DNA of 64,000 nucleotides from Amphiscolops sp. MND2022 (GCA_964187785.1 OZ076414.1:68882001-68946000), one strand, 5' to 3'. Positions 306-32,649 are shown, numbered from the stretch's first letter. The notes: a model not told the origin generated them from the sequence alone. Translations and numbers: made by a program.

Positions 306-321
306 TCTGGAATAGTTTTTA

Positions 322-339
322 TGGCGACCACAGAGAGAT
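322..339 (+). promoter_or_regulatory. Primer-binding site, tRNA-Arg(UCG)-like
   Basis: TGGCGACCACAGAGAG resembles the complement of a metazoan tRNA-Arg(UCG) 3' end (TGGCGACCACGAAGGGA, recalled). It starts 16 nt after the LTR end. Confidence 0.7.
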
Positions 340-819
340 ATTTTTTTTATTTTCACGTCCCAGTAGGTGCAACTCATGCTTTCCAGCCCCGGAGGGTCCA
401 GATCTAGGAGAAGCTTTTTGGAGTGTCCTAGATTGTTTTTATTGCTTTTTTTGAGCTTACTAGGTTTTCTGCTAACGGAATTACCGCGTTTTCTGCATGT
501 TTCCGAGGTCTCGAACAAGAATTAGACAGTTTCAAACGGTGTACCCCCTTTCGCCTTAAGTGTACTTGTTGAAAAAGCTATTCCGGCCTATCCGGCACGT
601 GTTTTAAAGGGCTTTCAAGCTTCTTTTTAGCTAATTGGTAATGTACAGGGACTGAGAGAACACTGCTAGCTGAGTGCAAGACGTCAGGTCCTCCACGTCG
701 CACCCTTCACCTCCCCTTCAACTGCCGAATCTACGACGACAGCTGTGTTATTTCGTTCCCCTTGTATTTAACGGCCCAAAAAGCGTATTCCAAGGCCTAT
801 TCCTACATAAACTAACTGG

Positions 820-3803: not shown

Positions 3804-5179
3804 CCTTGTCAAACGACCCCAGCAGTACACCGAGCACCCTCAGCACGTCTTGTTGAGTCACTTTGGTTGGTGCTAAAGATTGCGGGTCTCCGAGAAAACT
3901 CTAAAAATCGAAATTCGCGTCCTGACTGCTATCAAAGTCCCCTAAGTGCAAGTTATTCGTTGTGAACGCGCATGCTTGGTACCCTGTGTTTTTTTGGGTG
4001 CTGGAGCAGGTTCATAGGCACTTTAAGAGATTTAGAGTTTGAACGCGGTGCGTGTCAAAACAGAACAACAATTACAGTAGTGGCTACCATAGTTGAGATT
4101 GTTTTTCTGATCTCACTTTTGTCTTCAGGCAAGAAATCACTTCAAGGTCCTTCCTCCTATTTACCTCCAAGGCCTATTCTCAGTCTCTAATCACATTTAC
4201 GTCTTTACTTATGTTCTCCAGAAACAGGGAAGCATGAACGACAAACGGACTTTTCAGACAATCCTGGCGTCTGTAGCGAAGCAGGCTTCTCAAAAAATCG
4301 GTGTTCGTTGCTCGATTCATGTCTAAGGTGTACCTCAGTTCTCGTTACCACAGTGGTGTGAACCATGTCGATGTGAAAACATCGGACAAGAGATACCTGT
4401 TCTCTCCCGAGAGAAATCAACACCAAGCATGATAAAACACCTGAGCTTCGAAGCTCTGAGAACTGCTTTGCCAGCGGCCGTGCTTTTGAACTTGAATGGT
4501 TGCTTGGAACTTGTTTTTAATGCCGGAGACTGTTTTCAAGATCTATCATGCCTGATTTTCGACTTTTATTGGATCTGATCTGTCATCGCTACTGACATAA
4601 TCATCATCTTGAGAAGCAGATTATTTCCATCTCTTACATATACACTGGTGCTTATACTACCTAGATGATACCTTTACCTTTACCTGAGCGTACACTGTTA
4701 ACACAATAGATTGAATGGGGTCTCACTTTTGGTGATAGTTTGAATTTTTGAGCTCTCTTTTTCCATTGGTGCTGGTTATTGTGCGGTTTCTGTTGGCCAT
4801 GAACCACGACACTTTTGCAATACCACTGATGCTACTTTTATTTTCACTTTTCAAGTCCTATTGTGCATTTTGTAACACCTAACCTATCAGGTGGGCCCCC
4901 GGCTAGTGTGGAACCTGTTTTGATGAGTGCTTTTCATACTTATAAATATGCGGTAACACGAAGTGCTAATTATTTTGTGCGAAAAGGAAAGTTGCGAAAC
5001 GTTTTGAACACAATGCTAAGTGTCTAAAGTTGCTAATGCTTTTCCAGTCCAAGAACCCATTGTTGGTATGGAATCCAAGGAAGCCTGCTAGGTTCGCGCC
5101 AAAACACTGGATGGTGGCAACCAAGGTGTGAACATCCTCTGTCGTTTGTCGAGGGCGACAAACAACGGCCCGGGGAGGA

Positions 5180-5736
5180 TTTAACGTACAGCAAAAGACG
5201 TTGCAAAGTTTCGATCAAAAATTCGAAATGTGCGGTATCAAATAAACACATTCAAGATGGCCGACCCACAGGTACAAGAATCGTAGAAGAACTCCAAAAG
5301 GACACAAGGAGAAGACCCAACCCCCACACCCTCAAGACGATCTCGAAAGCATGAAGACAGAGCCACAGGCAAGGAAGAGAGCGCCGTGTTGTGTCATTCT
5401 ACTCGAAAAGATGCCCCAGACACCCGAAAGAGGGATATTACCAAACAATGGTGTCTCCTTTTTGGACCTCGGAAGTATGTTGGAAGTCGCAGGAGCACGT
5501 TAGGAACATAGGATTCGTTTTTACAGGCTTGTGGGACGTGTCCTGACTTTGAGAGTGCCGGCGCGTCGCCTCAGAGCTCTAACGGATGAGCCTCCTTTAC
5601 GTCAGAATAGTCCACCTGGGAGACCATTTTGAGATAAAAACTAGGGTCTAGGGCTGTAGTAAGACAACGGTCTCCCGTTTAAGCATCCTAGGCATTATCC
5701 CAATTCTAGGATGTACGCTACTAGCTGGACGTTACA
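5180..5736 (+). repeat. 3' LTR of element A
   Basis: Follows PPT GGCCCGGGGAGGA; starts TTTAACG (TGTAACG variant) and ends CGTTACA. Confidence 0.75.
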
Positions 5737-13243: not shown

Positions 13244-13438
13244 AATTCTTCATGGAACTCATAGCTACTGTTTAACCACTTCACGTAACCAGAGGGTTAG
13301 GTCTCCCGGAAAACAATGTTCGGACCTGTCGACCGATTCTAAATAGTACCTGTTCTTTAATTTGACAAGTGCTGAATTCACACTTGCCTGAACTTGGATG
13401 AAAGTATCTCGGAACATATTATCTTAAACCTCACACAT

Positions 13439-14143
13439 CGTAACGTCCACCAGTCGACACCAAAAATTCAATCAAGGACCAAAAAATGTGCGAATCAAAA
13501 TGGCCGACCTAGCAGGTCGTTGAAATCAAAAAAGAACAACAGAAAACGCAAAAAAGAGACCCGCGCAAGACGAAAAAGACGAGAAGACAACATACCAATA
13601 GAGAGACACGTAGTGGGACTCGGAATTGTGCCATCTCACTCAGAAATTGCGAGTTCTTTACGAGGAAATGGCCCGGGATCCAAATATCCCATATTGGAAG
13701 AAAACTCGAAAATTGTGGAATCAATGAGAGAACGTTGGAAGTGTCGATTTTGATTGATTGTCATATTATTATTGTTCATTTGCAGATTTATGGAAATGCA
13801 GGATCTGCTAGATCCTTGTGCTGGAACTTTTGAAGGTTATTTTCATAATAGAATGCTTTCAGACTAAAACCCTGTTTTAGGAACTTGGAGATATGAAGAA
13901 CCGCAAGAACACTTTAGGATACGTTTTTACGTGCTTGTGGGACGTGTCCGGACTTTGAGTGTGCCGGCACGTCGCCACAGAGCTCTAATATGAGGAGTAT
14001 CCACAGCGTCTTGGAAAAGTCCCTACTGAGACCTTTTAGGGATGAAAAGCTGATGTTTAGGTTGTTATAAGACACTGGTCTCTTGTTAAGACATCCTGAG
14101 CATTATCCCAGTTCTAGAATGTAGCTGCTAGCTTGACGTTACA
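13439..14143 (+). repeat. 5' LTR
   Basis: CGTAACG...CGTTACA, 705 bp, ~95% identical by eye to 30697-31402. Confidence 0.95.
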
Positions 14144-14159
14144 TCTAGGAGAGTTTTTA

Positions 14160-14177
14160 TGGCGCCCCGCAAGGGAC
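14160..14177 (+). promoter_or_regulatory. Primer-binding site, tRNA-Arg-like
   Basis: TGGCGCCCCGCAAGGGAC, 14/18 to TGGCGACCACGAAGGGAC; 16 nt after the LTR. Confidence 0.65.
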
Positions 14178-17100
14178 ATTTTCCATCTTTTCGCCATAAT
14201 AGGAGTTTTTCCTGCTTTCCGGCCCTGTTAGGTCTGGATATAGGAAAACTTTCTGGAGAGTCCTAGATTGTTTTTTTATTGCCCTATTTTAGCCTTACAG
14301 GCTTTGTATTAGTGTTTTTCCTGCGTTTCCTGCATGTTTCCAGGGTCTGAAATGAGAAATAACCGATTTATAACAGAGTACCGAATGAAAACCGTTCCTG
14401 TCTGTTGAAATCGAACATCCGGCCTCACCGGATTCTGTTTTAAAGGGTTCTGTAGCCTCATTTCACCTTATTTGCAATGTATGGGGACCGAGAGGACGAA
14501 CGCTGAAGGTTTCCACCAGCTGCGATGACGTGGTGACGTCCTACACGACGACTCCTCCTGTACCCTCGTGATTGCAATGTACCCTCGTCAAACGGGTGAA
14601 ATCACCAATTTTCTTAATTTTGAAGCCCAAAAAGCATATTCCCAGGCCTATTCCCACAAAAACTAGCTGAGAAAAATACCCAGCGGGTGTTTGGACCGTT
14701 TGTGAAAAAGTTTGAGCGCGAAAACCCAGAAAATCATCTTATCTATAGCTCAAACCTCAATTTTACAAATTTTGAGAGTCAAAAATTTGTAGAATAGAAT
14801 ACGGCAGGTGGGAATAGAATGAAAACGTTTCATTAGACCTGTTAGGTCACGAACAGAAAAATTTGCTGGGCTGAATGTCTGAAAAAACGAAAATTTTAGC
14901 AGTTTTTGTTGAAAAAACATCAAATATTGGCCTAAAAGACCAAAATTGGTGAGGGCGAAGCCTTAGGCGTTTATTCCCAAGCTTTTAGATCGGCTCAAAA
15001 ACGTTGTTCCCGAGCTTGGTGGTACGGAACATTACTGCCAAGACAATTTTTAGCATTCCCCTATATAAATTGAAACTTTAACCCCTGGTTTTCTTTGATA
15101 TACATAGACCTGAGTAGATGACCCCATAGACCTGAGAGTTATAACATCAAAACTAATAATTGAAATAATCCCAATCCCCCGAATAAAGTTATTACACCTT
15201 CCTACTGTACTATTAGAACTATACCGAACATCTGGTAACCGAGAAATAAAAAGTTCCTAGGGAAAACACGTGTTTTCATAAGTGTTCCCAGAGTGTAAAA
15301 GGTGTAACATGAAAAATTTTTGAGAGACCTTATTTGGAACCTGCCAGTTTTTGCTTGCCCATTTTCTGTTAGTTTAGAGTATAAAGTTGCAAACGCAGAA
15401 AATCGCGATTGATTCCAACCAGTGGTTGCCGAGAAATAGCCAAAAACCTGTTATTCCAGTGACAATATCGGTACACTGGAATAGCGTTCCTGAGACAGGT
15501 CGAAATCTCTCCCAGCAGGAATAGCCCAAAACGGACTGCACCATCGTATAGACCATAAAAAGTTACGTTAGTGGTGTACTTTTCGTAGCGCTACCATTAT
15601 TAGTGATTGAGAAATCTTAGCCGCACTTTTGCTCGAAATTTGTACGAAATTGTCGAAAAAATCGAATTATAGTTGAGCATAGTGCTATACCTTCGGAGTA
15701 CCCCAGCACTAAAGTTCTTGCATTTTCGTACGTACGGCAGTAGATCCCGACGATTTGTGCATTTTGAGCAGCTTTATACTGTCCAACTTGGAGAAATTGA
15801 CAATTTTGTGAATTCTGACCCCAAAAGGTGACACATAGGGTACATCATAGTTTTGTCAACTCGGATTGCAGAATACTGAACTCGGCACCCTGCTAAACTG
15901 TTTTTCTGTTACGTGGGTAAACTTCACGCTCGCATCCAAAATTTCAAGTAGCTAGGAAGCCTAGAAGGCGAGTTTGACGGACTTGTGTGAATTTCACAAT
16001 ATAGCCAATTTTCGTAACAACATTGTTAAACGATCCCAAGTCACATATTATCAATTTTGGTGCAATCGGCGGTAATTTTCCCACGATTTGGCCACTATAG
16101 TATACCGCGTTATATTATCAGGTCAATAGCAGCTCTAGAAGTGATTTTCACCCTTCCCAGACGTGCAAATTGGTGACAAAATTACCGATTTGATGAAATT
16201 CTACGAAAAATACCAAATCTTTCGTAGACGTAGTCGCAAGGGAAGACTCAAGCGACTCTAGTTCCACACTATACACCCATAGCACGTCCAGTTGAAACAA
16301 TTAGAATAGAGCTAGCCAAACCCTAAAATCTTGGGTTTGTCAAAAAACTGTCTGCGAGACATAGAAGTGAAAAACACCAAAATCGTGCTTTTTCCACCTA
16401 CGGCCATCAAAGTCATCTAATTACGAATTAATAGCTGCAGCCACGTACATTTCAAGTGGGAAGTACCGTGTGAAAGCTAGAAAGCATTTAGTAGCTTCCC
16501 AAGAAACTTGACTTTGAACGCGGCGCGTCTCGAGACAGAATATCAAGAACAAAAGCATTGAGATGTGTTAAGATTCAAGTTTCCAAGGATCGCACGGCAA
16601 TCAGAATAGTAAAACACCCTCGCTAGCTAATGTCCCAGCACCTACTCACCCCAAGGTCTACTTCTCGAATCCCCTTCAGCAGTAACCCTACTTGTACTCC
16701 CCAGAAATAAGGCAGTGCGAGTGACATAGAGTACGTTCGGAGAAGTGCAGTGTGACGATTCGCGGGAAATATCTCCTGGAAGTCCAGCCAACGTACTAAA
16801 ACCTCTTTGTTCATTCCAATCAAATAGTCTGCGGCTGGATAAAACCCAATTTAAAGTGAGTTAGCCTTAGCGTCCTCCAAGTAGTATCTCAAAAAAAACT
16901 TGTGTTTGATCTTAGTAGAATAACTATCTCCAGTTAACCTTTCTGTTCTGATTAATGGTGATTAGCACCAATGCATGTAACCGGGAGTCTCGAGTTTGTG
17001 AGAGTCAACTAGTCCTAATTTAGAACATAGAAGACAATCACGAGCTACTAGCCCCAAAACCCAAAAACACAGTAGTTTAGTTAAAATATTAGAGGAAGCG

Positions 17101-17217
17101 TAATTCAACCTTCGAGTTTAGTTAACTGTTGTTCCAATTTGTGAAGGGGAAGGATTGAGTAGAAAGTCAAAGAAAAGTTTAATTGAGTGAAAAAGCAAAA
17201 GATCGAACGAACGAAAA

Positions 17218-19700
17218 TGAGTTGGAATGAATGGGAATACTCTATGCCATCGAATGAAACACTTCGGGAAACCAATAGCATCCACGCCACCAACCCAATC
17301 GCAAGCGACATAGAGGATTGGTATAGGCTCAGCAAACAAGTAGAAGTAGCACCACCAGACACGGTCACTAACATATTTTTAGACGACGAAATGTCGGATA
17401 ACGTATCTAACGCCAAGCAAAACTTACGCATCGCGCAAGCAAACCAATCCAATTCCTCGCAAGCGTCACCAGATAGCGCTGAAATTGCCAACCAGACTCC
17501 CATAAACAACGGCAATGTGTGGCCGCCTCTGAATGCCTCCGTGATTGCTACCGGGGACTGGCCGAACTCAAACAGAAAAGTAGCGACGAGCTCAAACATT
17601 AACAAATGGGTGAAAAACATGAATGTGGGCATGACTTTAGGAGAGATTACAGCTCATTCAGTCACAAACGCGGACCTGCTGGGTTCTGGAATCCCGATAT
17701 TTGAAGCTAGCAGAAACACTTTGGGCAACACCGCGAACTTCCCTCCAGAAAGCAAGCTGGGAAAAGACCAGAAAAGAAGTGGCACTCCAAAATTATACCT
17801 TCGCAACACCACCATTGCTGGGTCCCAACACATTGCGACTCGAATGTACAGCAACATCTCAGCATTCCGATGCCGGCAATGTAGCATCTCCTAATTCGAC
17901 CATTACCAGAGGCATGAAAGAAACTGAAGCCATAAGGAAAGAATTTGGACACGGTATGGAGCAATTGAAACAGGTCCAAACAAAGCTGACCAAAGAGAAC
18001 AGCGACCATGTCCAAAGAGCAGAAGTCTTAATGATGGAAATGGACGAGTTGCGAAAGGAAGTAAAAGAAATAAAGTTGGAAGGCCGCGTTAACCAAGGCA
18101 AGATAGAGATGACCATGGCAACCGTCAAGGACCTGACCGAGAGACGAATATCAGAGATAACAGCAATAATGGCACAACGAGATAAACAAGCCGACGAACG
18201 TCTAAAATGTATGTCTGAAATGATGCATCGCAGGGACTTGGATGTTGACAAACGCATGATAGACCTCATGACTACGGTCCAAGACCTAACCCTAGGGGTG
18301 AAAACCGTAGCAGCAAGAGTGCCAAACAGCCCCGCACCAGTGCCGCTGGCACTAGACCCTGCGAACATACCATCCTCAAGCGCACCTCCAACGCAACGAA
18401 CAACCTATCGCGAAGTCGCCCAACGCCAGATGAATATCAAACCCAGCTATTCGAAACAACCAAAACTGCAAACACCAGCAATGTACAAAAAGGTGCCAGA
18501 CGAACCCAAGTCTTGACAGCAAGTGATAATGAAATACGTCACTGTGACATATCTGGCCCTCCCTCATTGGACCCCTACGCTAAAGGTGCTTCAACGACTG
18601 GAGATTATTATTCCCCGACCAGTGCTCAAATGCCCATAGACATGAGGACAACATCTGGTGATTCTGAATAACAAACCGCTGTCTCCTCGAACCCCGGTAT
18701 GAAACGCTCAGCACTATCCTACTTTAACAATCCACCACGGCCGTTGGCCTCTAGCACGCAAAGAAAAACTGTTTCAAGAAGGAATCTGAACCCTGTGACA
18801 ACTGAAGGAGTCACTAAAGATAATATTCCGAACGCAATACACAACCAAGCGTTAGCCGAAGCAATAACCACAGCAATGTCAAAAGGTCTGGAACCGCTGT
18901 TAACCACAAAAGCCACCAAGAATAAACCAACCAAATACCGCGGTACGCGAGATGGCATAGTGGACGGTTGGCTCATGCTGATGAAGCGTTATCTAGAAAA
19001 AGTTCATGCTAAGGACATCCCACTAGACAAAGCATGGACTACTGTGGAATTTCTAGAAAACGAAGCAAGGGATTAAATCAGAAGCAGAACGCGATACAGA
19101 CAAAAAAGTCTTCGCATTACTAGCGAGAAGATTCGGAACGGGATCCAACAAGATCCAAATACAACAACAGTTCCGCACGCGTAACCAATCCCCTGACGAA
19201 GACTACATGCAATATTTGGATGCATTGGAAGGCTTGCGCAGCCAAGGTTTTCCCCATGAGGAGGTTGCGGTGAGACGCTACGAAATCATGCAAAGATTTA
19301 TTGAAGGAGTACGCAGTTTTGAGCAACCTCGCACTCATGTATGCGCAAGAGCAGTATGTGGATACACCCCCAACGGTGTAAGCCCTACGATTCACAGTAC
19401 AACAGTACCTGCGCACGCGTGGTTCGGCCCGTTCGGAGACCTTTCCTGCACCTCCACAACAACAACTACAACAACCTGCCTCAGCCAATCCACAAAACCA
19501 GGTACAGGCACCAGCCGCTCAAGTGCCATCCAATGCCCAACAATTCCTGCAACGACCCGCAACCTTCAGACAACAACCGCAGCGAACGTGTTTCAACTGT
19601 GGAGACCCCTCGCACTTCGTGGCTGATTGTCCCATGAAGGACCGAGCACGGAAGCCCGTACAGCAGGTAGTCACTTCCTGTCGAACGAACATGACCGGAG
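17218..19700 (+). pseudogene. gag: gag (disrupted): low-complexity N-terminus, coiled coil, capsid-like region, CCHC zinc knuckle
   Basis: ORF pieces 17187-17894, 17701-18516 (heptad-rich) and 18699-19076 (KYRGTRDGIVDGWLMLMKRYL). Knuckle CFNCGDPSHFVADC at 19589-19630. Confidence 0.85.
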
Positions 19701-19782
19701 AATGGGTATGCCTATCGAACCCACGTGGTATGAATGACAATATGACGCCCGCAGCCTTACCAGAACAAGGAACAACACCATT

Positions 19783-20750
19783 TTGTATCAACACCATTTT
19801 TGTATGGCATCTGACTGTATGGTGCCTGAAAATGCAGTAACAGAAGAACAAGTACAAGCGGCGTCGTACGCCTCAGTCAGGAGTTCAGCAGACTTTGCAA
19901 ACACTGACAATCAAATACGGGTAATATCAACATCTGAAGAAGGAGGCCCCTCACGTCCTGTGGTTGTGACCTGTGGTGAAAAACAAGTTCTCACAACGCT
20001 TGAAGCACCAGCACCCAATTGCACCGAAACGCTTATATCTATCCACTTGCTATTGTCCGCCGAACAGAAAGCATCTCCCGAACTCACATTGGCTCAATTG
20101 AAGGAAGAACTGTGTCGCAATACGAATCTTACAATAGCTTCGAGACCCTTGCCACACTTCACCAGAAGTGACGAGACCAAGCTAGCCCAAGTACAAAAGG
20201 TCAAGACAATCGCGCCGGTCGCCATAGCAATCACGATTGACGGAGTGGACATGAGGTTCGATGCGATTGTAGTCCTGGAAGGACACTTCCCTCAAGGCCT
20301 ATATTTGGGTAGGCAAGAACTCCGCTGTTACAACATTGGAGTGCAAGATGCACAAGGAGAAGCACAAATTGATGAGCGAGCCTCGCTAGTCGTTGCATTC
20401 GGCACTCCTTTACAAAAACCGATGCCACTTTTCGGCATGATAGACACCGGCTCGGGAGCCTCCATTCTTTCACTGAGTGCATACAAGAAGATGAGCTTAA
20501 CCAACATGAACTGAATCTATCACCATACAACATTGAACTATTCGCTGCTAATGGCAAGAGTATCACCACCGTTGGCGTCGCAGAAGATGTGAACTTTCAG
20601 CTCGACGGACATACTCTGAAAACCAACTTCGTAGTCATAGCTGATCACATTGGATCAGAGGACTTCCTCCTAGGTAGAAATTTCTTGCGCATATACAACG
20701 TATTGGTGGACCTCACGGCAATGAAGGTGACAATTCGTGATCCCTAAACG
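19783..20750 (+). pseudogene. pol: Aspartic protease region of pol
   Basis: MIDTGSGASILS (DTG at 20443), then IELFAANGKSITTVG and DFLLGRNFL after a frameshift. Confidence 0.9.
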
Positions 20751-21419
20751 CCTAGAACATTTAAAACCTTCATGAGGTAAGTGACAAAGAACCATCGTTT
20801 GTCATTTCCACTGAAGAAGTTCTAGGGACTTTCGAAAGAAAAGTGGTACGCGCGAAAATCATCACACAACAACCGGATGAATTTCACTTCCTTAAAGTAA
20901 TGGTCCATTCATGTAGCATGAAATCCAGTTCAGTCTTTGTTTCAGAAGATATACTAACTTCCATGGGGAAAGGGGGTATAGTATTCATAGCCCTGCGAAA
21001 TCAAACTGACAAAGAACGGGTAAGAATCAAAAAACAAACTGTAATTGGAAAAGCAAAGCTTACTACTTTTGTGTTAAATTCTGTTCCTATGCAAAGTATC
21101 TGTGAAGCTTCGAAGCTCACGAAGGAATTTGTAAATCGAATACATAAAGATATTGATTTGGACACTAGTTCAGAATACAGTTCTTTCGCCCAAAACTTCT
21201 TATCTTCAACGGAACCGTCTGAGATAGGCTTGTCAGAAAATGAAAAGAGAAAAAGTACAGATCCTCAATTGCTAAAAGCAATCCCAGGGCCCGACCTTTC
21301 CTCTGTCCTTTCTTCATGGGGGGAAGAGGCGAGAGACAAATTAGAAGTCATTTTAACTGAGTACGAAGCTTTATTTCTGAACAACAAGTCTGACATAGGC
21401 AAGTGTAAAATAGCAAAAC

Positions 21420-22110
21420 ATAGAATAGAGTTAGAGCCGGAGGCTATACCCCATCGGGAAGGAGCTAGACGAATGTCTCCTGATAAAGCGGCAAAAGCCA
21501 ATCAGGAAGTGCAAAACCTGCTGGCTCATGGTCTGATTCAACCCTCTTACTCTCCGTGGGCCAGTGGCATAGTCATGGTAAAAAAGAAATCAAGCGAGCT
21601 TCGCTTTTGCTGTGACTTCCGCCCGCTAAATGATGTAACTTTGAAAGATGCGTGCCCAGGATAGATGAAAGCTTCTCGAGGATTGGAAATGCAAAAATCT
21701 TTACCAGCATTGATTTAGCGTGGGCCTTTTGGCAGATTTCATTGAAAAAGTGTGACCGCAGAAAGACCGCATTTGCATGTGAGCTTGGCCTATTCGAATG
21801 GCGACGAATGCCCTTTGGGTTATGCAATGCATCAGCCACCTTTCAATGATCAATCACAAGAGCTCTTCAAAAGATCCAACAACGACATGGAAGTGTCATC
21901 ATGGCATACATCGATGACATAGTGATAGCAACCGCAACTATTGAACACCATTTGGAAAGAATCAGAGAAGTATTTGAATGTCTCAGAGAGGCCGGCTTCA
22001 AGATGCGAGCCGAGAAATGCGACTTTATGCGCATCGAGACTAAATACCTCGGAAGAGTGGTTTCCTCCGAAGGCATAAAGCCAGACCCGGCTTCAGTAGG
22101 CAAAATCTAA
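21420..22110 (+). pseudogene. pol: Reverse transcriptase domain (disrupted)
   Basis: SPWASGIVMVKKK, RFCCDFRPLN, IDLAWAFWQI, MPFGLCNASATFQ, YIDD, YLGRVV. Confidence 0.97.
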
Positions 22111-22116
22111 GAGTGG

Positions 22117-22600
22117 ATGCCCCCGAGAAATAGAGAGGAGCGACAGAGCTTCCTTGGATTTGCGAACTACCGAGACTTCATTCCTTTCCATGCCGCCAAG
22201 GTACAGCCTATGCAAGAACTGTTGAGGAAGGATCAACACTTCTACTGGAACGAGAAGCAGCAGGAAGCATTTGATTTAGTGAAACAAGCACTAGCTGACG
22301 CCACAGACTTAGCAGCACCAAACGATGAAGGACGTTTCGTTTTGGACACAGACGCCAGCGCGGTCGCTATAGCCGGCATACTGCACCAAGAACAAGAATA
22401 TCAGGAAAAGACCATCCTTCGTCCCATCGTTTTTGGTAGCAAATCACTGACTCGAACACAATTGAAATATGTTGCCCCAAGTCTAGTGATGTATGCTGTT
22501 TTCTATTTCATTGAGAAATCTTATTCCTACCTTGCGGGTGGGGAATTCACGCTGCGCGTGGATAACGAGGCTCTCTTGTGGCTGAAAACATATCCGACGG
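22117..22600 (+). pseudogene. pol: RT connection and RNase H (C-terminally deleted)
   Basis: FLGFANY, FVLDTDASAVAIAGILHQ, FTLRVDNEALLWL. Confidence 0.9.
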
Positions 22601-22649
22601 ACGATGCATGTAAGACCGTGTATGATTGTCATGCCTCAATTGTACCAAC

Positions 22650-23670
22650 ACGAGATTTTATACCGAGCACATGATGAATCAGGACACCAAGGTGTTGGCA
22701 AAGTGCTGGCAAGGATCCAGGACGGCCACACTTGGCCAGACATCAAACGTAATGTCGTCAATCACATTACGCACTGCTTAACGTGCCAACAGACAAAACA
22801 CCCAGCTGGAAATCCCTGCTACCCCCTACAAAGTATCAACAGCAGCAATTTCAACAACCTAGTGCAGTTTGACCACTTGAAACTGTGCAAAACAACGTCA
22901 GGAAACAATGGACTGCTAGTCATTATCGACCATTTTACTAAATTTGCAGAGGCAATTCCATGTGCACATGATGAATACGATGCCCAGACAACTGCAAAGA
23001 TCATTTTGAATAAATGGTTTGCAAGACATGCACTCCCGCCAGGATACAATCAGACAACGCCACCAACCACTGCCGAAAAAGCACAGGAACTGATGAAAGC
23101 CTCGCAAGTAACTAAGGTGACATCGACTCCAGCACACCCAAGAGGCAATGGTGGAACGACAAAACAGAACATTGCTCACTCTGCTCCGAGTCTACACTTC
23201 TCGCAGAATGCTCGACTGGGACGAGCACATAGATGGAGTCCTAGGTGCCTAAAATTCAACCAGACATGCTTCAACTGGGTTCTCTCCGTACATGCTCCAA
23301 CATGGAAAAGTTCCGCTCTCGTTCATATATCCCGAGTTTGCAGCACGAGAAGTTGAGTCTAAGGAAGAATTTGTAGAACACCCACTCGCCAGACAACAGG
23401 AAATCTACGAGCTTGTTCGCAGAAACACGCACCAGGCACAAGTACGACAGAAACAAAAATTTGATCTACACTTGAAAGCAAAAGCACACGCCATAGGCGA
23501 CGCTGTTTGGGTTTTCTGCCATATAATTCCCAAGGGCGGTACCCGCAAGCTCCTCCGCGCCTGGCGCGGGCCTCATAAGGTCATAGACGTGCTACAAGAT
23601 GGACGACTGTACGTATTAGATACAGGCCAAAAAGTCCATTTTGAGCGATTGAAAAAGCACATGCCTGCAC
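22650..23670 (+). pseudogene. pol: Integrase (HHCC, DDE core, GPY/F)
   Basis: HDESGH...HCLTCQQ; VQFDHL...IIDHFTKFAEAIP; TPAHPRGNG; WRGPHKVIDV. Confidence 0.95.
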
Positions 23671-23899
23671 CCTGGGATTGGGCAACACACCAACCATTTG
23701 GACCTGACCAGAACGTCACCATCATTGCAGACCCATATGCAGAAGAAAGCAATGAGGAAATTACATTCGAAATGGAACCAACTGCACCCGTTCCACCTCG
23801 CAAAATTCAAACACGCACTCAATCCGCTTTGCAACAAGGAATCCCACGCAGGCGATTTAGCCACTTTGGATATTCATCCAAATCAGAATCTGACCAAAA

Positions 23900-25916
23900 A
23901 CCAATAGCCCCCCTTCTGCAGAAACATAGCAACCACTGGTTTTCCCTGACATTGACGATCTGGAACCATTATTCTCAGATCAAGAAGAAGTCTTGCCCGA
24001 ACAACTACAGAGCCTAATACCCTCACCATCAGGAACGTCGGCACCACTACTGTCAAACCCAGCCCTAACCGACACTTTGAGTAACTTTCCATTTTACAGT
24101 TCTCAAAATGGTAGCTCGGCAAGACTCGAACTCACACAGGAAGCCGAACCCCAAGAAGAAAACAATGGAGAAATCCAGGAACCTGACCGAAACATAGCAA
24201 CATTACCAACACCTGGGAGAACTGCAAGCAGGAGGCGCAAACCAAGAGGTAGACCTCCAGGTCGTAGAAGAGGAAGCACCACTTCATCAAGCAGAGCACT
24301 CACACGACCGAACAGACCATGCACTCGATCGAGAGGAAGAACAGAAACTAGGGTTCAATCACAAACCTTAGAACGCGCAATGACACTACCCGACATTGCG
24401 GAGAGTATATCACCAGAAGAGCGAGAAGTACAACCAACAACACCTTCACAAGCCCCACCTTACCAACTACGACGTAACAGGGCACCACGATACCGGTGCG
24501 GAACCTGTGGTTCCCGCTACTGTAGTTGCGTCAACCTAATCGAACGAAAGCCACCGGACGATCAACTGGCCCGGGGAGTGGACGCTCTGACACCCATTTT
24601 AGCTGAAGAGGACACTTTTGAAGACCATGAACAACGCACAATCTGGGCCATACAGACTAACAATCAGGATGGTCCACAAGTACACCATATTCACATCACG
24701 GTAGAAAAGACATACTCGACATTGAAGCAGGTGTGATCCCACCATTGGAAACCACATTGAAAGCCATGCACGAGACATTACCTTCAGACTGTCCTGTCTA
24801 TCGGTTCAAAGAGTGGACGCGGCACGACAAGAGTGGACTAGAATTTACTTTAACCGCTATAATTCCTCCACTCCCACCATCGATGGTATTCGGAGAAATT
24901 GGACCAGAAGACACGATTATAGCAATGATACGCTGTATCACCGCGCAGAAGCTTTCGCAACAATTTGGCGTGACCTCCCCCGGGAGATGTGTATCACCCA
25001 TCAACCGGCTGTTGGCTAGACACCTCCTTGGATGAAGTATCACCAGTGACTCCAGGAACTCTGCTAATTTGCCTAGAAAACTTACGTACCCTAGTAGAAT
25101 TTGAGGACACACTCTGTTTCCATCTAACAGACATAACCGCGGAAAATTCCTTAGTCAACATTGGTTACAACTACTAGCTATCATCTTATGTCGCCAAGCC
25201 AAAATACGTTTAATGGACAAATACATGTATCATTCGAAAATCCAACGACCGTGCTTGAAGCACTCTCCGTAGTTCACGATTGGTCCTGCAAAAACTTGAG
25301 AGACCGTCCCTTACGCATAACAGTATGGCAAGACCGCAAAGCCATCCTGGATCATCTAGCACCAAATCAATACAATCAAAGCACACTCACAGGAAAATTA
25401 TTAGCAACACACCCGAAAGTCAAGCCCAATTACTTACCCTGGATAACCTACGCTGAAACTGATATACTGCAAGCACGCGGTACCGTAGTAATATGCTGTC
25501 CGGCTGACCTGCTCTCCTATTCAGCAATGGCACGCTATGTCATCAGGGAATATGGTCAAGAGAAGATTTTCAAATTACGACCTGCCGTAGGGAAGGCCAT
25601 ACACCTCCCTAAGTCACCCGACGCGCCATGGAACAACAGCATGTTTCTACTATTTACAAGAGCCTCCAACAAACATCCCATGTTGCATGATGTACTACAT
25701 CTGTGCCTGCTAGATCTAGTGCAAAAACTCACGCAAGCCCAAGTCACCCGAATTCACCTTCCCATCTATGATCCTGAAAGGTCAATCAACATACTACCAA
25801 CTTGGTATTCAATGTTACGATATCATTTCATCGATTCAAAAGTCGACATAGTGCTCCACGACAGGGTGTGTGTATGTATCGATCGCATCCGTCAAAATGC
25901 ACCCTATCCGGACTAA
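23900..25916 (+). pseudogene. Pol C-terminal extension: AT-hook, Cys cluster, TARG1/OARD1-like macrodomain
   Basis: ORFs 23993-24736, 24733-25035, 24989-25177 and 25161-25916 abut or overlap. RKPRGRPPGR at ~24235-24265; CGTCGSRYCSC at 24497-24530; macro-like at 25443-25859. Confidence 0.7.
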
Positions 25917-26103
25917 GCACAAATTAGCTTGAGTCATTGTAGCAATTAGCAATAATCATTGGATGGACTTTTCTTCTTCTTAAGCGTTCGTGTAAATTGA
26001 GCAACCCTTCAAAAAAATTTTTGACGCCGACTGTTTAATCAATCTTGCTGAATTTTTTTAACTATATCTTGTTTGAGTTCACGTAACACCATTTTAGCCT
26101 ACA

Positions 26104-26127
26104 ATTGACGCCTGTTGTTTCTTTCAG
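26104..26127 (+). promoter_or_regulatory. Putative splice acceptor upstream of ORF3
   Basis: ATTGAC, then CCTGTTGTTTCTTTCAG in a T-rich gap between the pol stop (25916) and the ATG at 26233. Confidence 0.45.
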
Positions 26128-26232
26128 TTCAGTCCTGTTCATTCACTTGCGCCTACCACCGCCAGCATTGCTATCACTCATTTGCAGTTTGTAAACGTTC
26201 ACATTCCAATAAAGGTGCTACCATTTTCGCCA

Positions 26233-29200
26233 ATGGACCAATCATCTAGAAACCGACTACCATGTCCACTCGGGCCAGTATCTTCTATGTCCTCGCTGCC
26301 TGTCGCAGAGCCCCAAACCCACACTGACCAGCCTGGTCTGACCCAGGCAAATCTTCAATCTGATGTCTCACCAACACTGGCCACCAGGATAGCCATGCTA
26401 ACCGCCCAAATGCAGACATTAGAAACACACCCTGATTTCACGCTCTCCAGTTCCATTGGAATTGGCTCCTACCGTCGCACAGCTGAACTCCACAACGGAA
26501 CATGGCAGGGCCATGACCTGAATCAACACTTTGATGACAACTGATCAAGCTTGCGTTACAGTGAGCCTGCTAGGCCTTCCCCCATGGCACCCCTTCGATC
26601 AGACCTGCGACAAACATCTCAGCCGCCAAACTCTGCAGCTTCCGTCAACACTGGAACCGAACCGCCAACGTCTACTGCCACAACACAACTAATTACATGT
26701 CTACTACCAGCCATGCCTCCACCGATGCTAACATACACCTCAGCTTCTGCCTCCACATGTATACGACGTCTTCACGACAACGACCCTCATCTCATACGCC
26801 CTTCAACTTTCAGGGGGGAAGGGGTAGAGGAAGCAAGCACCAGCACATAAAACACAGTCAATGCTACCGAAAACACTACGACAAACTTAACGCAAAGAAC
26901 AGTAGTAATGCGAAACCCATTCGATGTGCCCATCATGAAAGATGTAGTTGGATGCCTGGACTCATATGTTGCTTTATTGCCACAACCACCAACGGACCCA
27001 CAGCACCTGAAAGGCTTCCAAACTAATCCGGAACTACAAGAACAACAAAAGATACAGGAAAAAAACAGAGACAAGCTCCCATCGATCTCAGAAACGTGTT
27101 GAACCAAAAGGAGCAAAACATAATAGAACAATTGGCCCAAAAGAACAGAGCAAGAGAACTAGCCAATGCAAACACGCCTAGCTCCAGTTCAAGCCTCTCC
27201 CCAGTACAACAACCAGAGGCCAGACGAGTACGATTTTCCGACGAACTCCTCTCGCAGACAGAGGCACGACAATTCGACATTGCCACTAGAGACGCGGTGC
27301 GTCTGCAAAGAGAAGCCAAACCAGGAAATCCAAACTCTGGCATAGATGAACAAAAATTCGATACTGGTACTAGCAAAGGAGACCCAGAGAATGTGCAAAA
27401 TTTAGAAAAGGCTTCAATTGGAATGCACTATCTACGGCCCATGAACAAACCAACTTTGCTACTAGACCGCATTCCCCAATGGTTCGAAAGAGTAGAAGAG
27501 GACCTTCGCAAGGATATGTCTTCACTCACGAGACCATTGTCATCAAGGACAAAGCTAGATATACAACGACCAGCAAGATACGACGAACAACTGCTGCGAG
27601 GCAAGGACTTCAAAAGGGACCTATCAGCATTACTACCCATGGGCAAAAAAGTACTTCAAAAAACAAGCATCGCCTTATTCATAGACTCGACAATGAAAGC
27701 AACGGCCATTATGAACAACACTTTAATGGATGTTCGAGTGATGAATCTCCCCTGCTCATCGTTAGAGGAAATGGCCGAGGTGACGTGCAAGGTCTTCGGT
27801 CCCACCGCAAATCACTCTGAAACAATAAAATTTCCCCCAATACGGATCTACATCAATATAATTGACCAACTGGCCCTTCGAGGAACACTGAAACACTTTG
27901 AAGGAGGAAATCGAAGGCTAACAGAAGCAGTGATGACTGGCGAAGTAGTGGCCTACATTGAAACCATGAGGAATGTGATTGGAAAAGTACAGAGAAAGAA
28001 GCCCACAGTAGGCGTAATCTTCGTGTCACCCCCAGGATATATATATATATATATATATATCTACCATTACCACTCCAACATTGCTGTACCTACTATCTGA
28101 AGCCGCCCACGCCCAGAACCTTCATTTCTACCTTGTAGCCTCAAACCTAAGGTTCAGTGCCAAGACCTGGCGCCCATGTGAGAATTCATACTCTGCACTC
28201 TGGGCTGAAATATCAAAGGCTCTACAAGCCTATATTGGATACAAAGGAAACTCGCAATTTACAGCCGATGATGCCACCGCCTTCGACTTTGGGATGCAAA
28301 TGGCACACCGCACCTTTGACAATAATGGGATGCGCCGCAACAGGGACCCAAACGAACACGAGAGAGCGAACATGATTGACAACATATGGTTCGAAAAAAG
28401 AGACGAGTCAACTCTGGACGAAAAGACGCACAACGCGAAATTCCATATAGAGCTGGTAGCTCTCTCCATGAAAACAGAGGAGATCTGACAAACTCGCACT
28501 GAAGTGACTGTTTTCCGAGTAGCGACACAAGCAATTGACTCAAAACCAAACATTGTCTCTCCAACCTTAGTGCTACTATCAATATTAGCCCAGAAAACAG
28601 CACAGGAAAACCAAACCAACCCACGACACTCATACCAATCATGGCACCTAGAACTACAGCAAACCCTAGCCGAAATGGCCGAACGTCATGGAATCCCATT
28701 CCCGATATTCCTGTATAATATCTCACCTTTCTGGGTACCCAAAATAGTACAGCGCAAGAACAATTTAGATGATCAACAAAATGTATGTAGAAGCCATGCA
28801 ACGGGCCAAGATCAGTAAAATCCTCGCCTACCTGATGGCCGCTGGCCTGAGCTTGTTCTATAAAGGCCCAACACACCTGGTACAAGAATTAGTTCTGAGC
28901 AAAGCCAACTCTTGCCTGCTTAGCTTCTTGATATTTGCAAAAAACCAACGAGGCTGGATCAACGCAATTCTGAAAACACTGGATCCCGCGGGCGCTCTGA
29001 AGCTCAATGCCCAACTAGCAGAAAACATCGAATCGATGCTGGCCTGGATCTTTTCAGCGTGGATGAACGTCTCAGGCATCATGATCACCATAGACAACCC
29101 TGACACGCTGAACCAGCAAAATAACGATAAAAACGTGCCAGGTTTCTTCTTCCCCTCGCAACTTGCCAGCCTAATGCTAGTGGAAACTGAAGATCTAATC

Positions 29201-30301
29201 CCAGTGATTGCCCCGATAGTCTGGCCTATAATTGATCCCATGATGGCTCTCAGATACCCTACACAACCACTCAGAGTAGCTGCTAGTTCACCCACACTAT
29301 CCATACTGCACTTTGTGGATCCTCAGGACGATGCCAGACCACCTGGATTTCAGACGCTAGTACGCGACTTTGCCAAGTTTCGACCCCCAATGGCGTACAC
29401 CATTATCAAAGACAAAAAGCAAGTCGAGCACAACTTCGTAACTCTGATCCGAGCCAGAGCGCGGTGCGCAATACCAACGCTGTACTTGACTAACGCTGTA
29501 CAACGTCTGGGAGGACGAAGAAAAGGTACAACGCCAGAAAAGCTTCAATATCAAAATATTCAAGACACCTCCCGCATGTATAACCCCCGGACGAGACCAT
29601 TGGATAGCACCGCAGTAGCCTTGACTAACATCACATGCTGGACAAATCCGCCGATAGTAGACCAGACTATCTATCGCAATTACCAAATGCTAAATGCAAC
29701 CATACCTAAAATCGCAAAAGAACCGAAACGAAAAATCTTGCCCATCAACACAGAAGCCCCAAGCAACCCAAAAATGGCGATGGAAATTTTCATGAAGCTG
29801 GTAACTAACCAACAAGAGGAAAACAGCTCAGTGTGCACAGGCTATCTAACTGCAATAGAAACCTATAAAGACACTTCCAAGAGATATAGACGCCAAGACC
29901 TTGCCAACAAGCTGCCAGAGCAATGCCCGGTGGGCTCCTCCACAGAAAGACAGGCAGTGGGACAAGAAGAAAACTCTACCAGTGGCAGCACAACATCTGT
30001 GTTATCTACCATCACTCCAGAAGATACCCCGCAAGTTATCACAGCAGCGAACATGGATACATCCACTAATGATACTAGTCAAGCCAATCGGATGTCAGAA
30101 GACAATATAATTGTTCCAGACAATAACGTAACGATGCCACCATACAGTCCAGAAAACATACCAGTATTTATATCCCAGTCGGAGGTGGCTGATATAGAAT
30201 CAGAACTCAATGAATTGCCCAGCGTGAACCCCCAAGAACTGCTGTCAATGGATATGCTACCAGAAACATTAAACGAAGCGCCACATGAACAAACTGATTG
30301 A
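26233..30301 (+). pseudogene. ORF3 (~1350 codons, disrupted) in env position, with SGNH-like domain
   Basis: Pieces 26182-27102 share one frame, separated by single stops. They continue via frameshifts through 27096-28100, 28081-28818 and 28769-30301. IALFIDST...FVSPPGY...WRPCENSYSALWAEISKAL pattern at 27660-28240. Confidence 0.7.
28037..28060. repeat. (AT)12 microsatellite
   Basis: Directly read; lies at an ORF3 frameshift region. Confidence 0.95.
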
Positions 30302-30696: not shown

Positions 30697-31402
30697 TGTA
30701 ACGTCCACCAGTTGACACCAAAAATTCAATCAAAGGCCAAAAAATGTGCGAATCAAAATGGCCGACCTAGCAGGTCGTTGAAATCAAAAAAGAACAACAG
30801 AAAACGCAAAAAAGAGACCCGCGCAAGACTAAAACGACGAGAAGACGACATACCAATAGAGAGACACGTAGTGGGACTCGGAATTGTGCCATCTCACTCA
30901 GAAATTGCTAGTTCTTTTTGAGGAAATGGCCCGGGATCCAAATATCCCATATTCGAAGAAAAACTGGAAAATTGTGGAATCAATGAGAGAACGTTGGAAG
31001 TGTCGATTTTGATTGATTGTCATATTATTATTGTTCATTCGCAGATTTATGGAAATGCAGGATCTGCTAGATCCTTGTGCTGGAACTTTTGAAGGTTATT
31101 CTTATAATAGAATGCTTTCAGACTAAAAACCTGTTTTCGGACCTTGGAGATATGTAGAACCGCAGGATTTCTTTAGGATACGTTTTTACGTGCTTGTGGG
31201 ACGTGTCCGGACTTTGAGTGTGCCGGCACGTCGCCACGGAGCTTTAATATGAGGAGTCTCCTCGGCGTTTTGGAAAAGTCCCTACTGAGACCTTTCAGGG
31301 ATGAAAAACTGATGTTTAGGTTGTTATAAGACACTGGTCTCTTGTTAAGACATCCTGAGCATTATCCCAGTTCTAGAATGTAGCTGCTAGCTTGACGTTA
31401 CA
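30697..31402 (+). repeat. 3' LTR, preceded by PPT GCCCGGGGAGGA
   Basis: TGTAACG...CGTTACA, 706 bp. Confidence 0.95.
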
Positions 31403-32649
31403 CATTTTTTCCTGAAGGAAATCAAAATTAACAATTGTACTGTACTCTAGAGCTTTGAAATAAATAGCTCTGCTTCGAGCTAAAGTCTCTCGTTGTGTTT
31501 ATGACTGGTGCCAACTGAGGTCGCTTTGGTAAAATTAATAAGAGGCCCAGCGGCAGTAAATCTTGACAAAAACTGATTCCGAAAAATTTGGGTTTTTCCA
31601 GCTAAAGTGTGAGCAGCCAGAGTTGGCAATCTGACTAAATTCACAGAGAGAGAAGTCTCCGAATCATGCCCAAGTACCATATTTGAAAAGTTTCTATAAA
31701 ACCTCGTAGTGCCAAAAAACTTCATTGAGGGGACCTATGAGGCTGATGAAAACTATTTTTGCTGACTAAAAAATAAAACATACCCCAGAGCACACATTTT
31801 AGTGAGCGACAACGTTTTTATAAAAGTCGAACATTGTCAAAAAAACCCAAAAAGGTCTGGTATATAGCATGAAAGCGAAAGATTACAAAAGTGTATACGA
31901 GGAGAATGAAGAAAACAATTGTTTTGACTAAATTGCTTTTTCGATGTTATCAAGAGAGATCAAGTCATCAAACTTATGCTATCCTATATCAAAAAAGCAA
32001 GCCACGAACAGCTCAAGCGAAGCTCCGATTTGATCAAATCGGAGCGTCGGTCATGTTTCAAAAAGAGCAAATTGTTTCGATTATGCGAAAGGACACTTTT
32101 GTGAAAATCTTTATCAGAATTGCAGAGCCGAAAACAAATCCAAAGTATACACTAAGACTCGAAAACCGCTATTTCAGAAAATTTAAAAAAAATGTTTCTC
32201 GTTACAAAAGTCCGTAGTGTGGGAAAAACCCAGATCGCAAAACGCTTATTCCAAGCAAAAAATTTCCTTTGAGTGAAGGTGGGTATCCTTCGACCAAACG
32301 AAATATTTTCATAAACGCCAAAAAAGCGATTGTCACAGGTGCTAATGAAACTCTCATTCGGACCACATGACGTAAATATATCCAAAGGTGTCACTCCTAA
32401 GATCCGAGAAAAATATACCTCACACAAATTTCCGAAAACAAAACACTTTGTGACGTTGTGAGGTTTTTGAACTGTTTCCAAAATCTGTATCAAAGAATAA
32501 TTTCTAAAAGTACCATTGTGCCAAAACAATTGTAAGGAGGCCCTTTAGCCCAGAAAATGCTTCGTTTTAGTTTGCTTGACTTTTCTCATCGATCGGTTCA
32601 ATTGCTTTCTGTGACAGTGTGAAATCTAACCATTCAGTTAGGGCTTGCG

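What the first reader, a model, noticed from the sequence alone, without database searches (positions are those of the whole stretch)
25443..25859. TARG1/OARD1-like (Poa1p-class) macrodomain at the end of Pol
Seen: ITYAETDIL-x5-VVICCPADL..SAMARYVIREYG..KLRPAVGKAIHL..MFLLFTRA..HDVLHLCLLDL..QAQVTRIHLPIY..WYSMLRYHFIDSKVDIVLH. This aligns motif by motif with human TARG1 as recalled (ITYVKGDLF / LAHCISED / GIAVLFKKKFG / GEVAVL / IYYLITKK / YENLQKSLEAM / GVTDLSMPRIG / EEVFEATDIKITVY). The GCGLD loop (catalytic Asp125) reads DPERS and Lys84 reads Arg. Established: macrodomains bind or remove ADP-ribose, viral ones antagonise PARP defence, and some retroelements are known to carry macrodomains. Inference: a degenerate ADP-ribose reader or eraser that could tether the intasome to PARylated (damaged) chromatin or blunt ADP-ribosyl defence.
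Basis: partly seen in the sequence, partly recalled or inferred. Interest (0 to 1): 0.85.

Follow-up and report, generated by a model that had tools for sequence, protein, structure and literature searches.

The report
Retrotransposon carries paired disabled TARG1 macrodomains
A high-copy jumping gene ends its polyprotein with a conserved relative of the human ADP-ribose-removing enzyme TARG1, preceded by a likely second, more decayed copy; the binding pocket has been rewired, so it probably no longer binds or removes ADP-ribose and likely serves as a docking module on the integrase tail.

Summary
Window 25440-25865 encodes a TARG1/OARD1-class macrodomain. A profile of 56 homologues hits only human TARG1 among PDB sequences (E about 1e-11). 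A confident model has TARG1 as its best fold match (Foldseek E 2.6e-8, Z 16.1). The domain ends the ~3,100-residue Gag-Pol of a large LTR-retrotransposon lineage and is under purifying selection (dN/dS 0.05-0.12); the window copy is broken.

The proposed function is doubtful. Lys84 is Arg and Asp125 is lost. Gly123 is Glu in 84 of 84 copies, the change that abolishes ADP-ribose binding in TARG1 (PMC5928194). A new Asp/Arg set is conserved instead, and a probable second, more decayed macrodomain lies just upstream.

Best reading: a tandem pseudo-macrodomain acting as a partner-binding module on the integrase tail (inferred). Other LTR families in this genome carry intact-looking TARG1 domains at three positions in Pol. 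Macrodomains in retroelements are known, and this scan noted a different one in another gypsy family (e1-7470572). The lineage also makes unusual 3-bp target duplications. Verdict: new variant of a known kind.

The parts
25440..25865 (+). TARG1-class macrodomain with a rewired pocket (macro 2), the finding itself. TARG1 equivalents: D20 kept (25461), D37 kept (25506), G43 reads A (25524), K84 reads R (25659), G121 reads D (25770), G123 reads E (25776), L124 reads R (25779), D125 reads S (25782).
24895..25225 (+). Probable second, more decayed macrodomain (macro 1), sharing the D-x-x-R loop; interrupted by frameshifts and a stop in this copy
   Evidence: hhalign against macro 2: probability 94.4, E 8.7e-8, score 46 against at most 14.9 in 30 column shuffles; alpha/beta order in the model; PARP14 macro1+2 aligns over model residues 73-408. 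Direct match to canonical macrodomains is not significant.
24230..24274 (+). Basic R-G-R-P-type segment resembling an AT-hook (motif label recalled; no Pfam hit) in the low-complexity linker after integrase
   Evidence: Seen in the printed linker of 7 of 8 intact frames, including a family only 34% identical in this linker; the printed stretch of the eighth did not reach it; no Pfam hit
24461..24529 (+). Basic R/Y motif followed by C-x2-C-x4-C-x-C, a possible small zinc-binding site just before the macrodomain pair
   Evidence: Present in 8 of 8 intact frames examined; zinc binding is inferred
17211..25926 (+). Broken single gag-pol gene (Gag with CCHC knuckle, protease, RT, RNase H, integrase, tail); many stops and frameshifts, and about 254 codons missing between RNase H and integrase
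   Evidence: intact natural copies 2,997-3,300 aa
22634..23600 (+). Integrase remains (H2C2 zinc domain, core, C-terminal part); approximate limits
   Evidence: PF17921 E 1.1e-14; mapping to an intact copy
26098..30301 (+). Broken second ORF; about 1,400 aa in intact relatives; no family assigned
13439..14143 (+). 5' LTR (705 nt), preceded by a 3-nt target duplication at 13436-13438
   Evidence: 95.6% identical to the 3' LTR
30697..31402 (+). 3' LTR, followed by the same 3-nt duplication at 31403-31405

Best explanation
This is a TARG1-class macrodomain kept under purifying selection at the very end of an LTR retrotransposon's Gag-Pol, probably the second of a tandem pair, whose rewired pocket likely neither binds nor removes ADP-ribose and which likely works as a partner-binding (tethering) module on the integrase tail. 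Shown: homology and fold, position after integrase, selection, the pocket substitutions, and a distinct deep clade with its own conserved residues. Inferred, with my odds: hydrolase-dead 0.9; no ADP-ribose binding 0.75; upstream domain is a duplicate 0.8. Proposed mechanism (inferred): an ancestor captured a TARG1-type domain, as several other LTR lineages in this genome did, and duplicated it. The glycine-rich phosphate loop was replaced by D-x-(E)-R, in which Asp121 would pair with Arg124 and Arg84 and close the pocket. The fold was kept as a surface for a host or element protein. The tail order is integrase, linker with an AT-hook-like segment, cysteine motif, macro 1, macro 2. That would hold the integration complex on chromatin or on a partner, in the slot where chromoviruses carry a chromodomain.
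For: Fold and class; against canonical element-borne macrodomains hhalign probability 97.8, E 8.5e-13. Selection: macro 2 dN/dS 0.05-0.12 in the 7 of 11 pairs with measurable dS; RT and integrase core 0.01-0.04; linker 0.12-0.34. Pocket, in 22 clade rows against 12 canonical-like rows: G43 1/22 vs 10/12; K84 1/22 vs 10/12; G121 0/22 vs 12/12; G123 4/22 vs 10/12; D125 0/22 vs 10/12. TARG1 G123E and G43E lose binding and activity (PMC5928194); K84A is inactive (PMC8501950). Residues conserved in the clade but rare or absent in canonical rows (window-query numbering, 25428 = 1): E41 20/22, F48 21/22, R40 21/22, P52 18/22, Y127 18/21, H144 16/19, plus D115 and R118 22/22. The D-x-x-R loop is also kept in macro 1, which has lost the Arg84 equivalent; this suits a structural role for the loop. 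The domain is neutral to acidic (median net charge -1 vs +9 in canonical rows), which fits protein better than nucleic-acid binding. Precedents: tandem ADP-ribose-blind macrodomains in SARS SUD (PMC2674928); chromodomain tethering in gypsy elements (10.1101/2021.11.30.470311; PMC12440569).
Against: No binding, partner or integration-site preference was measured. Asp20 (19/20) and Asp37 (19/21), which line the TARG1 pocket region, are conserved, and Asp20 more so than in canonical rows (3/12), as a still-used pocket would give. Four of 22 rows keep Gly123, and a G123E result in human TARG1 need not carry over to a remodelled loop. Clade rows were retrieved with a profile of this family, which inflates conservation of its motifs. 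Macro 1 does not match canonical macrodomains directly (probability 1.2, score 17.1 vs shuffle maximum 16.7) and was not folded alone; pTM of the two-lobe model is 0.55. Whether the tail stays on integrase after protease cleavage is unknown.
Confidence: 0.45

Rival explanations
1. The pocket is re-specified, not dead: Asp20, Asp37, Arg84, Asp121 and Arg124 together bind a different phosphate-bearing ligand (another nucleotide, a nucleic-acid end or a modified peptide).
For: These five residues are among the most conserved in the clade (19/20, 19/21, 21/22, 22/22, 22/22) and all map to the TARG1 pocket region. Dead pockets would be expected to drift.
Against: D-x-x-R is also kept in macro 1, which lacks the Arg84 equivalent and most of the first loop. 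Glu at 123 (16/22) blocks the pyrophosphate site in TARG1. Retrieval bias inflates the conservation.
Confidence: 0.2
2. It is an ADP-ribose or PAR reader that brings the integration complex to PARylated chromatin.
For: TARG1 fold; Asp20 kept; C-terminal position on integrase; tandem macrodomains are readers in PARP14, which aligns over both lobes.
Against: G123 reads E in 84 of 84 own-genome loci, G121 reads D in 83 and G43 reads A in 80. TARG1-G123E is not recruited to damage sites, and PAR competes poorly for it. The surface is not basic.
Confidence: 0.12
3. It binds RNA or DNA through surface patches, like SARS SUD or TARG1-G123E, and helps package or chaperone the element's genome.
For: Both precedents are ADP-ribose-blind yet bind nucleic acid; several arginines are conserved.
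Against: Net charge is -4 for macro 2 and -3 for macro 1 in an intact copy; the clade median is -1 against +9 for canonical rows. Net charge is a crude test and does not exclude a local patch.
Confidence: 0.12
4. The pair is a purely structural part of the polyprotein or particle (stability, spacing, assembly) with no host partner.
For: Both lobes and the linker are under similar selection (dN/dS 0.05-0.16 for the lobes).
Against: Most LTR elements work without such a tail (established knowledge). Conserved polar residues look like a binding surface, though their exposure was not measured.
Confidence: 0.07
5. It is an active ADP-ribosyl hydrolase that counters a PARP-type host defence.
For: Viral macrodomains do this (established knowledge), and other LTR families in this genome keep the Lys84 and GCGLD motifs.
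Against: Lys84 is kept in 1 of 22 and Asp125 in 0 of 22 rows; K84A kills TARG1. An arginine is not expected to form the lysyl adduct (inference).
Confidence: 0.04

Closest known systems
Human TARG1/OARD1 (C6orf130), ALC1-like/Poa1p class macrodomain (PDB 4J5S, 4J5R, 4J5Q, 2L8R)
   Same: Best sequence-profile and fold match, whole domain, about 15% identity, TM 0.82; D20, D37, T83 and P118 equivalents kept
   Different: K84 reads R, D125 lost, G43, G121 and G123 replaced, L124 reads R; probably tandem; part of a retrotransposon polyprotein; extra conserved C-terminal strand
Canonical TARG1-like macrodomains of other LTR families in the same genome (loci L139/L141, L166-L183)
   Same: Same macrodomain class; seven of the nine RT-tree rows carry it after integrase
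   Different: Mostly keep K84, G121, G123 and D125 (10-12 of 12); single copy; their RTs are 21-39% identical to this family's; separate side of a 100/100 branch
SARS-unique domain (SUD-N + SUD-M) of sarbecovirus nsp3 (PMC2674928)
   Same: Two tandem macrodomains in a viral polyprotein that have lost the glycine loop and ADP-ribose binding
   Different: Much weaker fold match (Z 6.5-7.3); lysine patches that bind G-quadruplexes, whereas this domain is neutral to acidic; an analogue, not a relative
Macro-domain ORFs of fish epsilon-like endogenous retroviruses (Basta et al. 2009, seen only as cited in PMC4977317)
   Same: A macrodomain carried by an LTR retroelement
   Different: Retroviridae and described as an extra ORF; class and pocket state not seen, as the primary paper was not held
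Chromoviruses (gypsy elements with a chromodomain at the Pol C-terminus; MAGGY)
   Same: A captured chromatin-type module in the same slot
   Different: Different fold; targeting is reported for MAGGY and only inferred here
Troyka LTR retrotransposons (PMC12440569)
   Same: 3-bp target duplications and a single Gag-Pol
   Different: TG..CA termini not CG..CG, standard CCHC knuckle, 705-nt LTRs, about 16.5-kb interior and an extra ORF; not a Troyka

Membership tests
Macrodomain superfamily | alpha/beta/alpha macro fold over about 130-190 residues | tested here: met
   pLDDT about 90 over the domain; 130 Foldseek matches at E <= 0.001, the listed ones led by macrodomains; Z 16.1
Macrodomain superfamily | Pfam Macro PF01661 above cut-off | tested here: not met
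   0 of 33 and 0 of 84 proteins; a genome-wide PF01661 search gave 6 other places. This is a limit of the model's reach, since the profile and fold tests pass.
TARG1/OARD1 (ALC1-like, Poa1p) class | Closest to TARG1 by sequence profile and structure | tested here: met
TARG1-type hydrolase | Catalytic Lys84 | tested here: not met
   Arg in 83 of 84 own loci and 21 of 22 clade rows; K84A inactive
TARG1-type hydrolase | Asp125 (catalytic role recalled; not seen in a paper read here) | tested here: not met
   0 of 84; 0 of 22
ADP-ribose-binding macrodomain | Glycines G43, G121 and G123 lining the pyrophosphate site | tested here: not met
   A, D and E in 80, 83 and 84 of 84 loci; G43E and G123E abolish binding in TARG1
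ADP-ribose-binding macrodomain | Adenine-side Asp20 (role recalled) | tested here: met
   80 of 84 loci; 19 of 20 clade rows
ADP-ribose-binding macrodomain | Measured binding or hydrolysis | not testable with these tools
   needs bench assays
Tandem macrodomain | Upstream lobe is itself a macrodomain | tested here: inconclusive
   matches macro 2 and has the expected secondary-structure order, but not canonical profiles; not folded alone
Ty3/Gypsy (Metaviridae) LTR retrotransposon | LTRs with TG..CA ends and order Gag-PR-RT-RH-IN | tested here: met
   (the window's 5' LTR begins CG)
Ty3/Gypsy (Metaviridae) LTR retrotransposon | 4-6 bp target-site duplication | tested here: not met
   3 bp in 6 of 6 paired elements and 7 of 9 full-length solo-LTR loci; none of 4-7 bp
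Ty3/Gypsy (Metaviridae) LTR retrotransposon | RT placed within Metaviridae against reference clades | not tested
   the RT tree held only own-genome families
Troyka | CG..CG termini and CX2CX8-10HX4C knuckle | tested here: not met
   TG..CA; zf-CCHC with standard spacing; definition

The most novel reading that the evidence does not exclude
LTR retrotransposons have repeatedly captured TARG1-type ADP-ribose erasers, pointing to an unrecognised ADP-ribosylation defence against retrotransposons. One deep lineage, possibly a new LTR group given its 3-bp target duplications with TG..CA ends, turned the domain into a tandem reader with a new Arg/Asp pocket that steers integration by a new chromatin signal.
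Probability: 0.2. Interest if true: 0.85.

Novelty: new variant of a known kind. Interest (0 to 1): 0.6.

Why it matters
It adds a fold to the short list of captured modules on retrotransposon integrase tails and shows a pseudo-enzyme kept by strong selection across families as little as 38-45% identical in this domain. One genome holds both intact-looking and pocket-rewired TARG1 domains in separate LTR lineages and at different positions in Pol. That gives a natural paired test of whether ADP-ribosylation acts against retrotransposons, and of what macrodomains do once they lose ADP-ribose. Pfam does not detect the clade, so it is invisible to routine annotation. The idea of a macrodomain in a retroelement is not new, and the function remains unmeasured.

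Tried and rejected
Blank or weak tests: Pfam on the window ORFs, 33 close and 84 distant homologues gave no Macro hit (one ThsA_Macro row at E 0.04). PDB sequence searches with the single sequence and the shallow profile gave nothing relevant. ESM Atlas gave unnamed viral clusters at 0.90-0.92, one with PF01661 in 14% of members, a lead only. A phage search with a distant homologue found nothing.

Homodimer prediction for the tandem region returned no verdict, score 0.00 in two runs, and is no evidence either way. No RNA holder was listed, so expression is untested. Host range could not be set: all 10 distant homologues looked up are unnamed or 'hypothetical' ENA/JGI records, and the search for longer proteins returned only 15 close relatives.

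Failed script steps: one search stopped on an error and was redone. The hhalign part failed and printed stale output; it was redone, and only the residue counts and LTR-end listing are used. One search had a 2-nt offset, corrected. The motif positions printed for the AT-hook were mis-indexed; only the printed segments are used.

Rejected: Troyka membership (termini, knuckle, sizes); neutral decay; an SGNH-esterase label for ORF2 (recalled resemblance; no support).

Literature: ten searches listed no paper describing a TARG1-class or tandem macrodomain in an LTR retrotransposon. I saw most hits only as listings, and the library lacks most subscription journals and Repbase Reports. PMC3642678, PMC2748043 and PMC3195580 were not held. 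No supplements were read; those of PMC5928194 hold the G123E binding data.

Full report
**Setting.** The finding lies in an 18-kb LTR retrotransposon. Its LTRs are at 13439-14143 and 30697-31402 and are 95.6% identical. Remains of a CCHC knuckle, protease, RT, RNase H and integrase lie in Ty3/Gypsy order. This copy is dead: gag-pol is split over many frames and lacks about 254 codons between RNase H and integrase. The window comes from a 1.07-Gb eukaryotic assembly whose organism I was not told and did not identify. A search with the segment gave 3,476 candidates, of which 150 were scored. All 150 matched at 81-100% identity, and about 48 of them (hand count) lie in open frames of about 3,000 residues or more. 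In one natural intact frame of 3,115 aa, Pfam places the knuckle at 711, protease at 976-1097, RT at 1379-1539, RNase H at 1605-1737 and integrase at 1993-2205. The segment is at 2954-3095, about 20 residues before the stop.

**Is it a macrodomain?** All quoted motifs are present. Shallow tests failed, apart from weak leads: an Atlas cluster with PF01661 in 14% of members and DarG/TARG1 near the top of Foldseek at E >= 0.037. A profile search of 1.84 billion representatives returned 149 proteins, some only about 25% identical. A 56-row profile matched 6 PDB sequences at E <= 10, five of them human TARG1 at E about 1e-11 over 136 residues. A 106-row model of the last 426 residues of an intact copy has pLDDT 86.1. 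TARG1 is first in Foldseek (E 2.6e-8, TM 0.82) and VIA-align (Z 16.1, rmsd 4.1, 143 aligned; DarG 14.9, Poa1p 12.2). The class assignment is secure.

**Is it under selection?** Pairwise dN/dS between natural frames is 0.05-0.12 for macro 2 in the 7 of 11 pairs where dS could be measured; the other 4 were saturated. RT and the integrase core give 0.01-0.04 and the low-complexity linker 0.12-0.34. Own-genome families as little as 38-45% identical in this domain all keep it at the C-terminus. Two distant homologues match this genome at only 31% and 44%, so they probably come from other genomes; their hosts are unnamed.

**The pocket.** The alignment to TARG1 is ungapped through both pocket loops, and the numbering agrees with G43, I44 and G123 in PMC5928194. 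In 84 of 84 own-genome loci examined, D20 is kept in 80 and D37 in 83. G43 reads A in 80, K84 reads R in 83, G121 reads D in 83, G123 reads E in 84 and L124 reads R in 83, and D125 is kept in none. These loci were the top hits of four searches, not a random sample. In 22 more diverse rows the counts are D121 22/22, R124 22/22, R84 21/22, D125 0/22, and position 123 E16, G4, N2. PMC5928194 (passages) reports that TARG1-G123E and -G43E are not stabilised by ADP-ribose and are inactive, and that G123E is not recruited to damage sites. PMC8501950 (passages) shows that K84A is inactive. So an eraser is very unlikely and a reader unlikely. Against this, D20 and D37 are well kept and the new Arg/Asp residues sit at pocket positions, so a changed ligand stays open. 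The rows were found with a profile of this family, which favours its motifs.

**A probable second copy.** The 112 residues upstream (intact 2770-2881; window about 24895-25225, broken) match macro 2 by profile: probability 94.4, E 8.7e-8, score 46 against at most 14.9 in 30 shuffles and 12.5 reversed. They share the D-x-x-R loop (D 37/40, R 38/40) and evolve at dN/dS 0.05-0.16. The model shows the same strand-helix order, and PARP14 macro1+2 aligns over residues 73-408, though at rmsd 16. They do not match canonical macrodomains directly (score 17.1 vs shuffle maximum 16.7) and were not folded alone, so I put the duplication at 0.8. Further upstream are a C-x2-C-x4-C-x-C motif (8 of 8 frames) and an AT-hook-like basic segment (7 of 8 printed; label recalled).

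**Context in the genome.** A PF01661 search found 6 places, three of them in one other LTR family. The two read show the domain after integrase-like sequence with Lys84 and GCGLD intact. Searching with that domain gave 1,553 candidates, 150 scored. In 22 fetched stretches the domain sits after integrase, between RNase H and integrase, between protease and RT, or in an 834-aa ORF. Among 12 such rows, 10 keep K84, G123 and D125. On a tree of 34 domains the 22 rewired rows and the 12 canonical-like rows fall on either side of a 100/100 branch (no root; 12 of the 21 canonical-like matches were used, chosen by hand to limit near-copies). A quick RT tree of 15 rows shows four far-apart lineages (long branches, so their order is unsure). 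Repeated capture or exchange of the module is the simplest reading (inference). Net charge differs: median +9 in canonical rows and -1 in the rewired clade (rows are related, so the test's P value overstates the case).

**Mechanism.** I favour a pocket-closed tandem pseudo-macrodomain used as a partner-binding module on the integrase tail (0.45). It sits in the slot where chromoviruses carry a chromodomain (10.1101/2021.11.30.470311, passages; PMC12440569). It follows DNA-binding-like motifs, has clade-specific conserved residues outside the TARG1 catalytic set, and is not basic. SARS SUD is the working analogue of ADP-ribose-blind tandem macrodomains (PMC2674928, passages). Rivals are a re-specified pocket (0.2), an ADP-ribose/PAR reader (0.12), nucleic-acid binding (0.12), a purely structural role (0.07) and an active eraser (0.04). 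No partner, ligand, expression or targeting was shown.

**Known versus new.** A review notes macro-domain ORFs in fish epsilon-like endogenous retroviruses (PMC4977317, passages; primary paper not held). This scan earlier noted a bacterial-type macrodomain between gag and protease in another gypsy family (e1-7470572; not checked here). I recall that database annotations list Poa1p-like macrodomains in insect gypsy polyproteins; this comes from no call. Ten literature searches listed no description of a TARG1-class, tandem or pocket-rewired macrodomain in an LTR retrotransposon. PMC4695847 (passages) and PMC5408684 (passages) had none; of PMC12440569 I read parts 1-3 of 5, and a word search of its text found no 'macro'. 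The lineage's 3-bp target duplications with TG..CA ends fit neither the usual 4-6 bp rule nor Troyka, so its filing under Ty3/Gypsy rests on domain order alone.

**Verdict.** Observation confirmed; interpretation partly supported; new variant of a known kind; interest 0.6.

Noticed in passing
window 13436-13438 and 31403-31405; loci L186-L215, L097/L098, L133/L134: The lineage makes 3-bp target-site duplications with TG..CA termini: 6 of 6 paired elements and 7 of 9 full-length solo-LTR loci (5 of 7 after removing two duplicated loci), none of 4-7 bp. PMC12440569 gives 4-6 bp for LTR elements other than Troyka, which has CG..CG ends.
   Followed up: partly
L139:1441-1875, L141, L166-L185: Other LTR families in this genome carry a TARG1-like macrodomain with mostly intact motifs: after integrase, between RNase H and integrase (L179), between protease and RT (L180), or after a protease-like region in an 834-aa ORF with no RT match within the 10-kb stretch (L181, L183). 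150 of 1,553 candidates were scored.
   Followed up: partly
L166, L173: A second, independent decay of the TARG1 pocket: these canonical-branch rows have lost Lys84 and Asp125 and also show Glu at the Gly123 position.
   Followed up: no
window 26098-30301; L133:92-4384; L099:55-4266: A second ORF of about 1,400 aa after pol is conserved between families (30-38% identity) with no Pfam, PDB or Atlas assignment. One copy with an intact Gag-Pol lacks it.
   Followed up: partly
window 14160-14177: The primer-binding-site-like motif starts 16 nt after the 5' LTR end, further than usual (recalled); the same spacing is seen in other copies. The priming tRNA was not identified.
   Followed up: no
window 19807-20765: About 150 conserved residues precede the protease and look like a second, degenerate protease-like unit (visual impression only; 75-99% identity among most copies).
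   Followed up: no
window 14144-17200: About 3 kb of non-coding leader lies between the 5' LTR and gag; similar stretches recur at 1-5,700, suggesting a second related element fragment in the window.
   Followed up: no
window 48242-49591: A 449-aa open frame outside the element with no significant Pfam hit.
   Followed up: no
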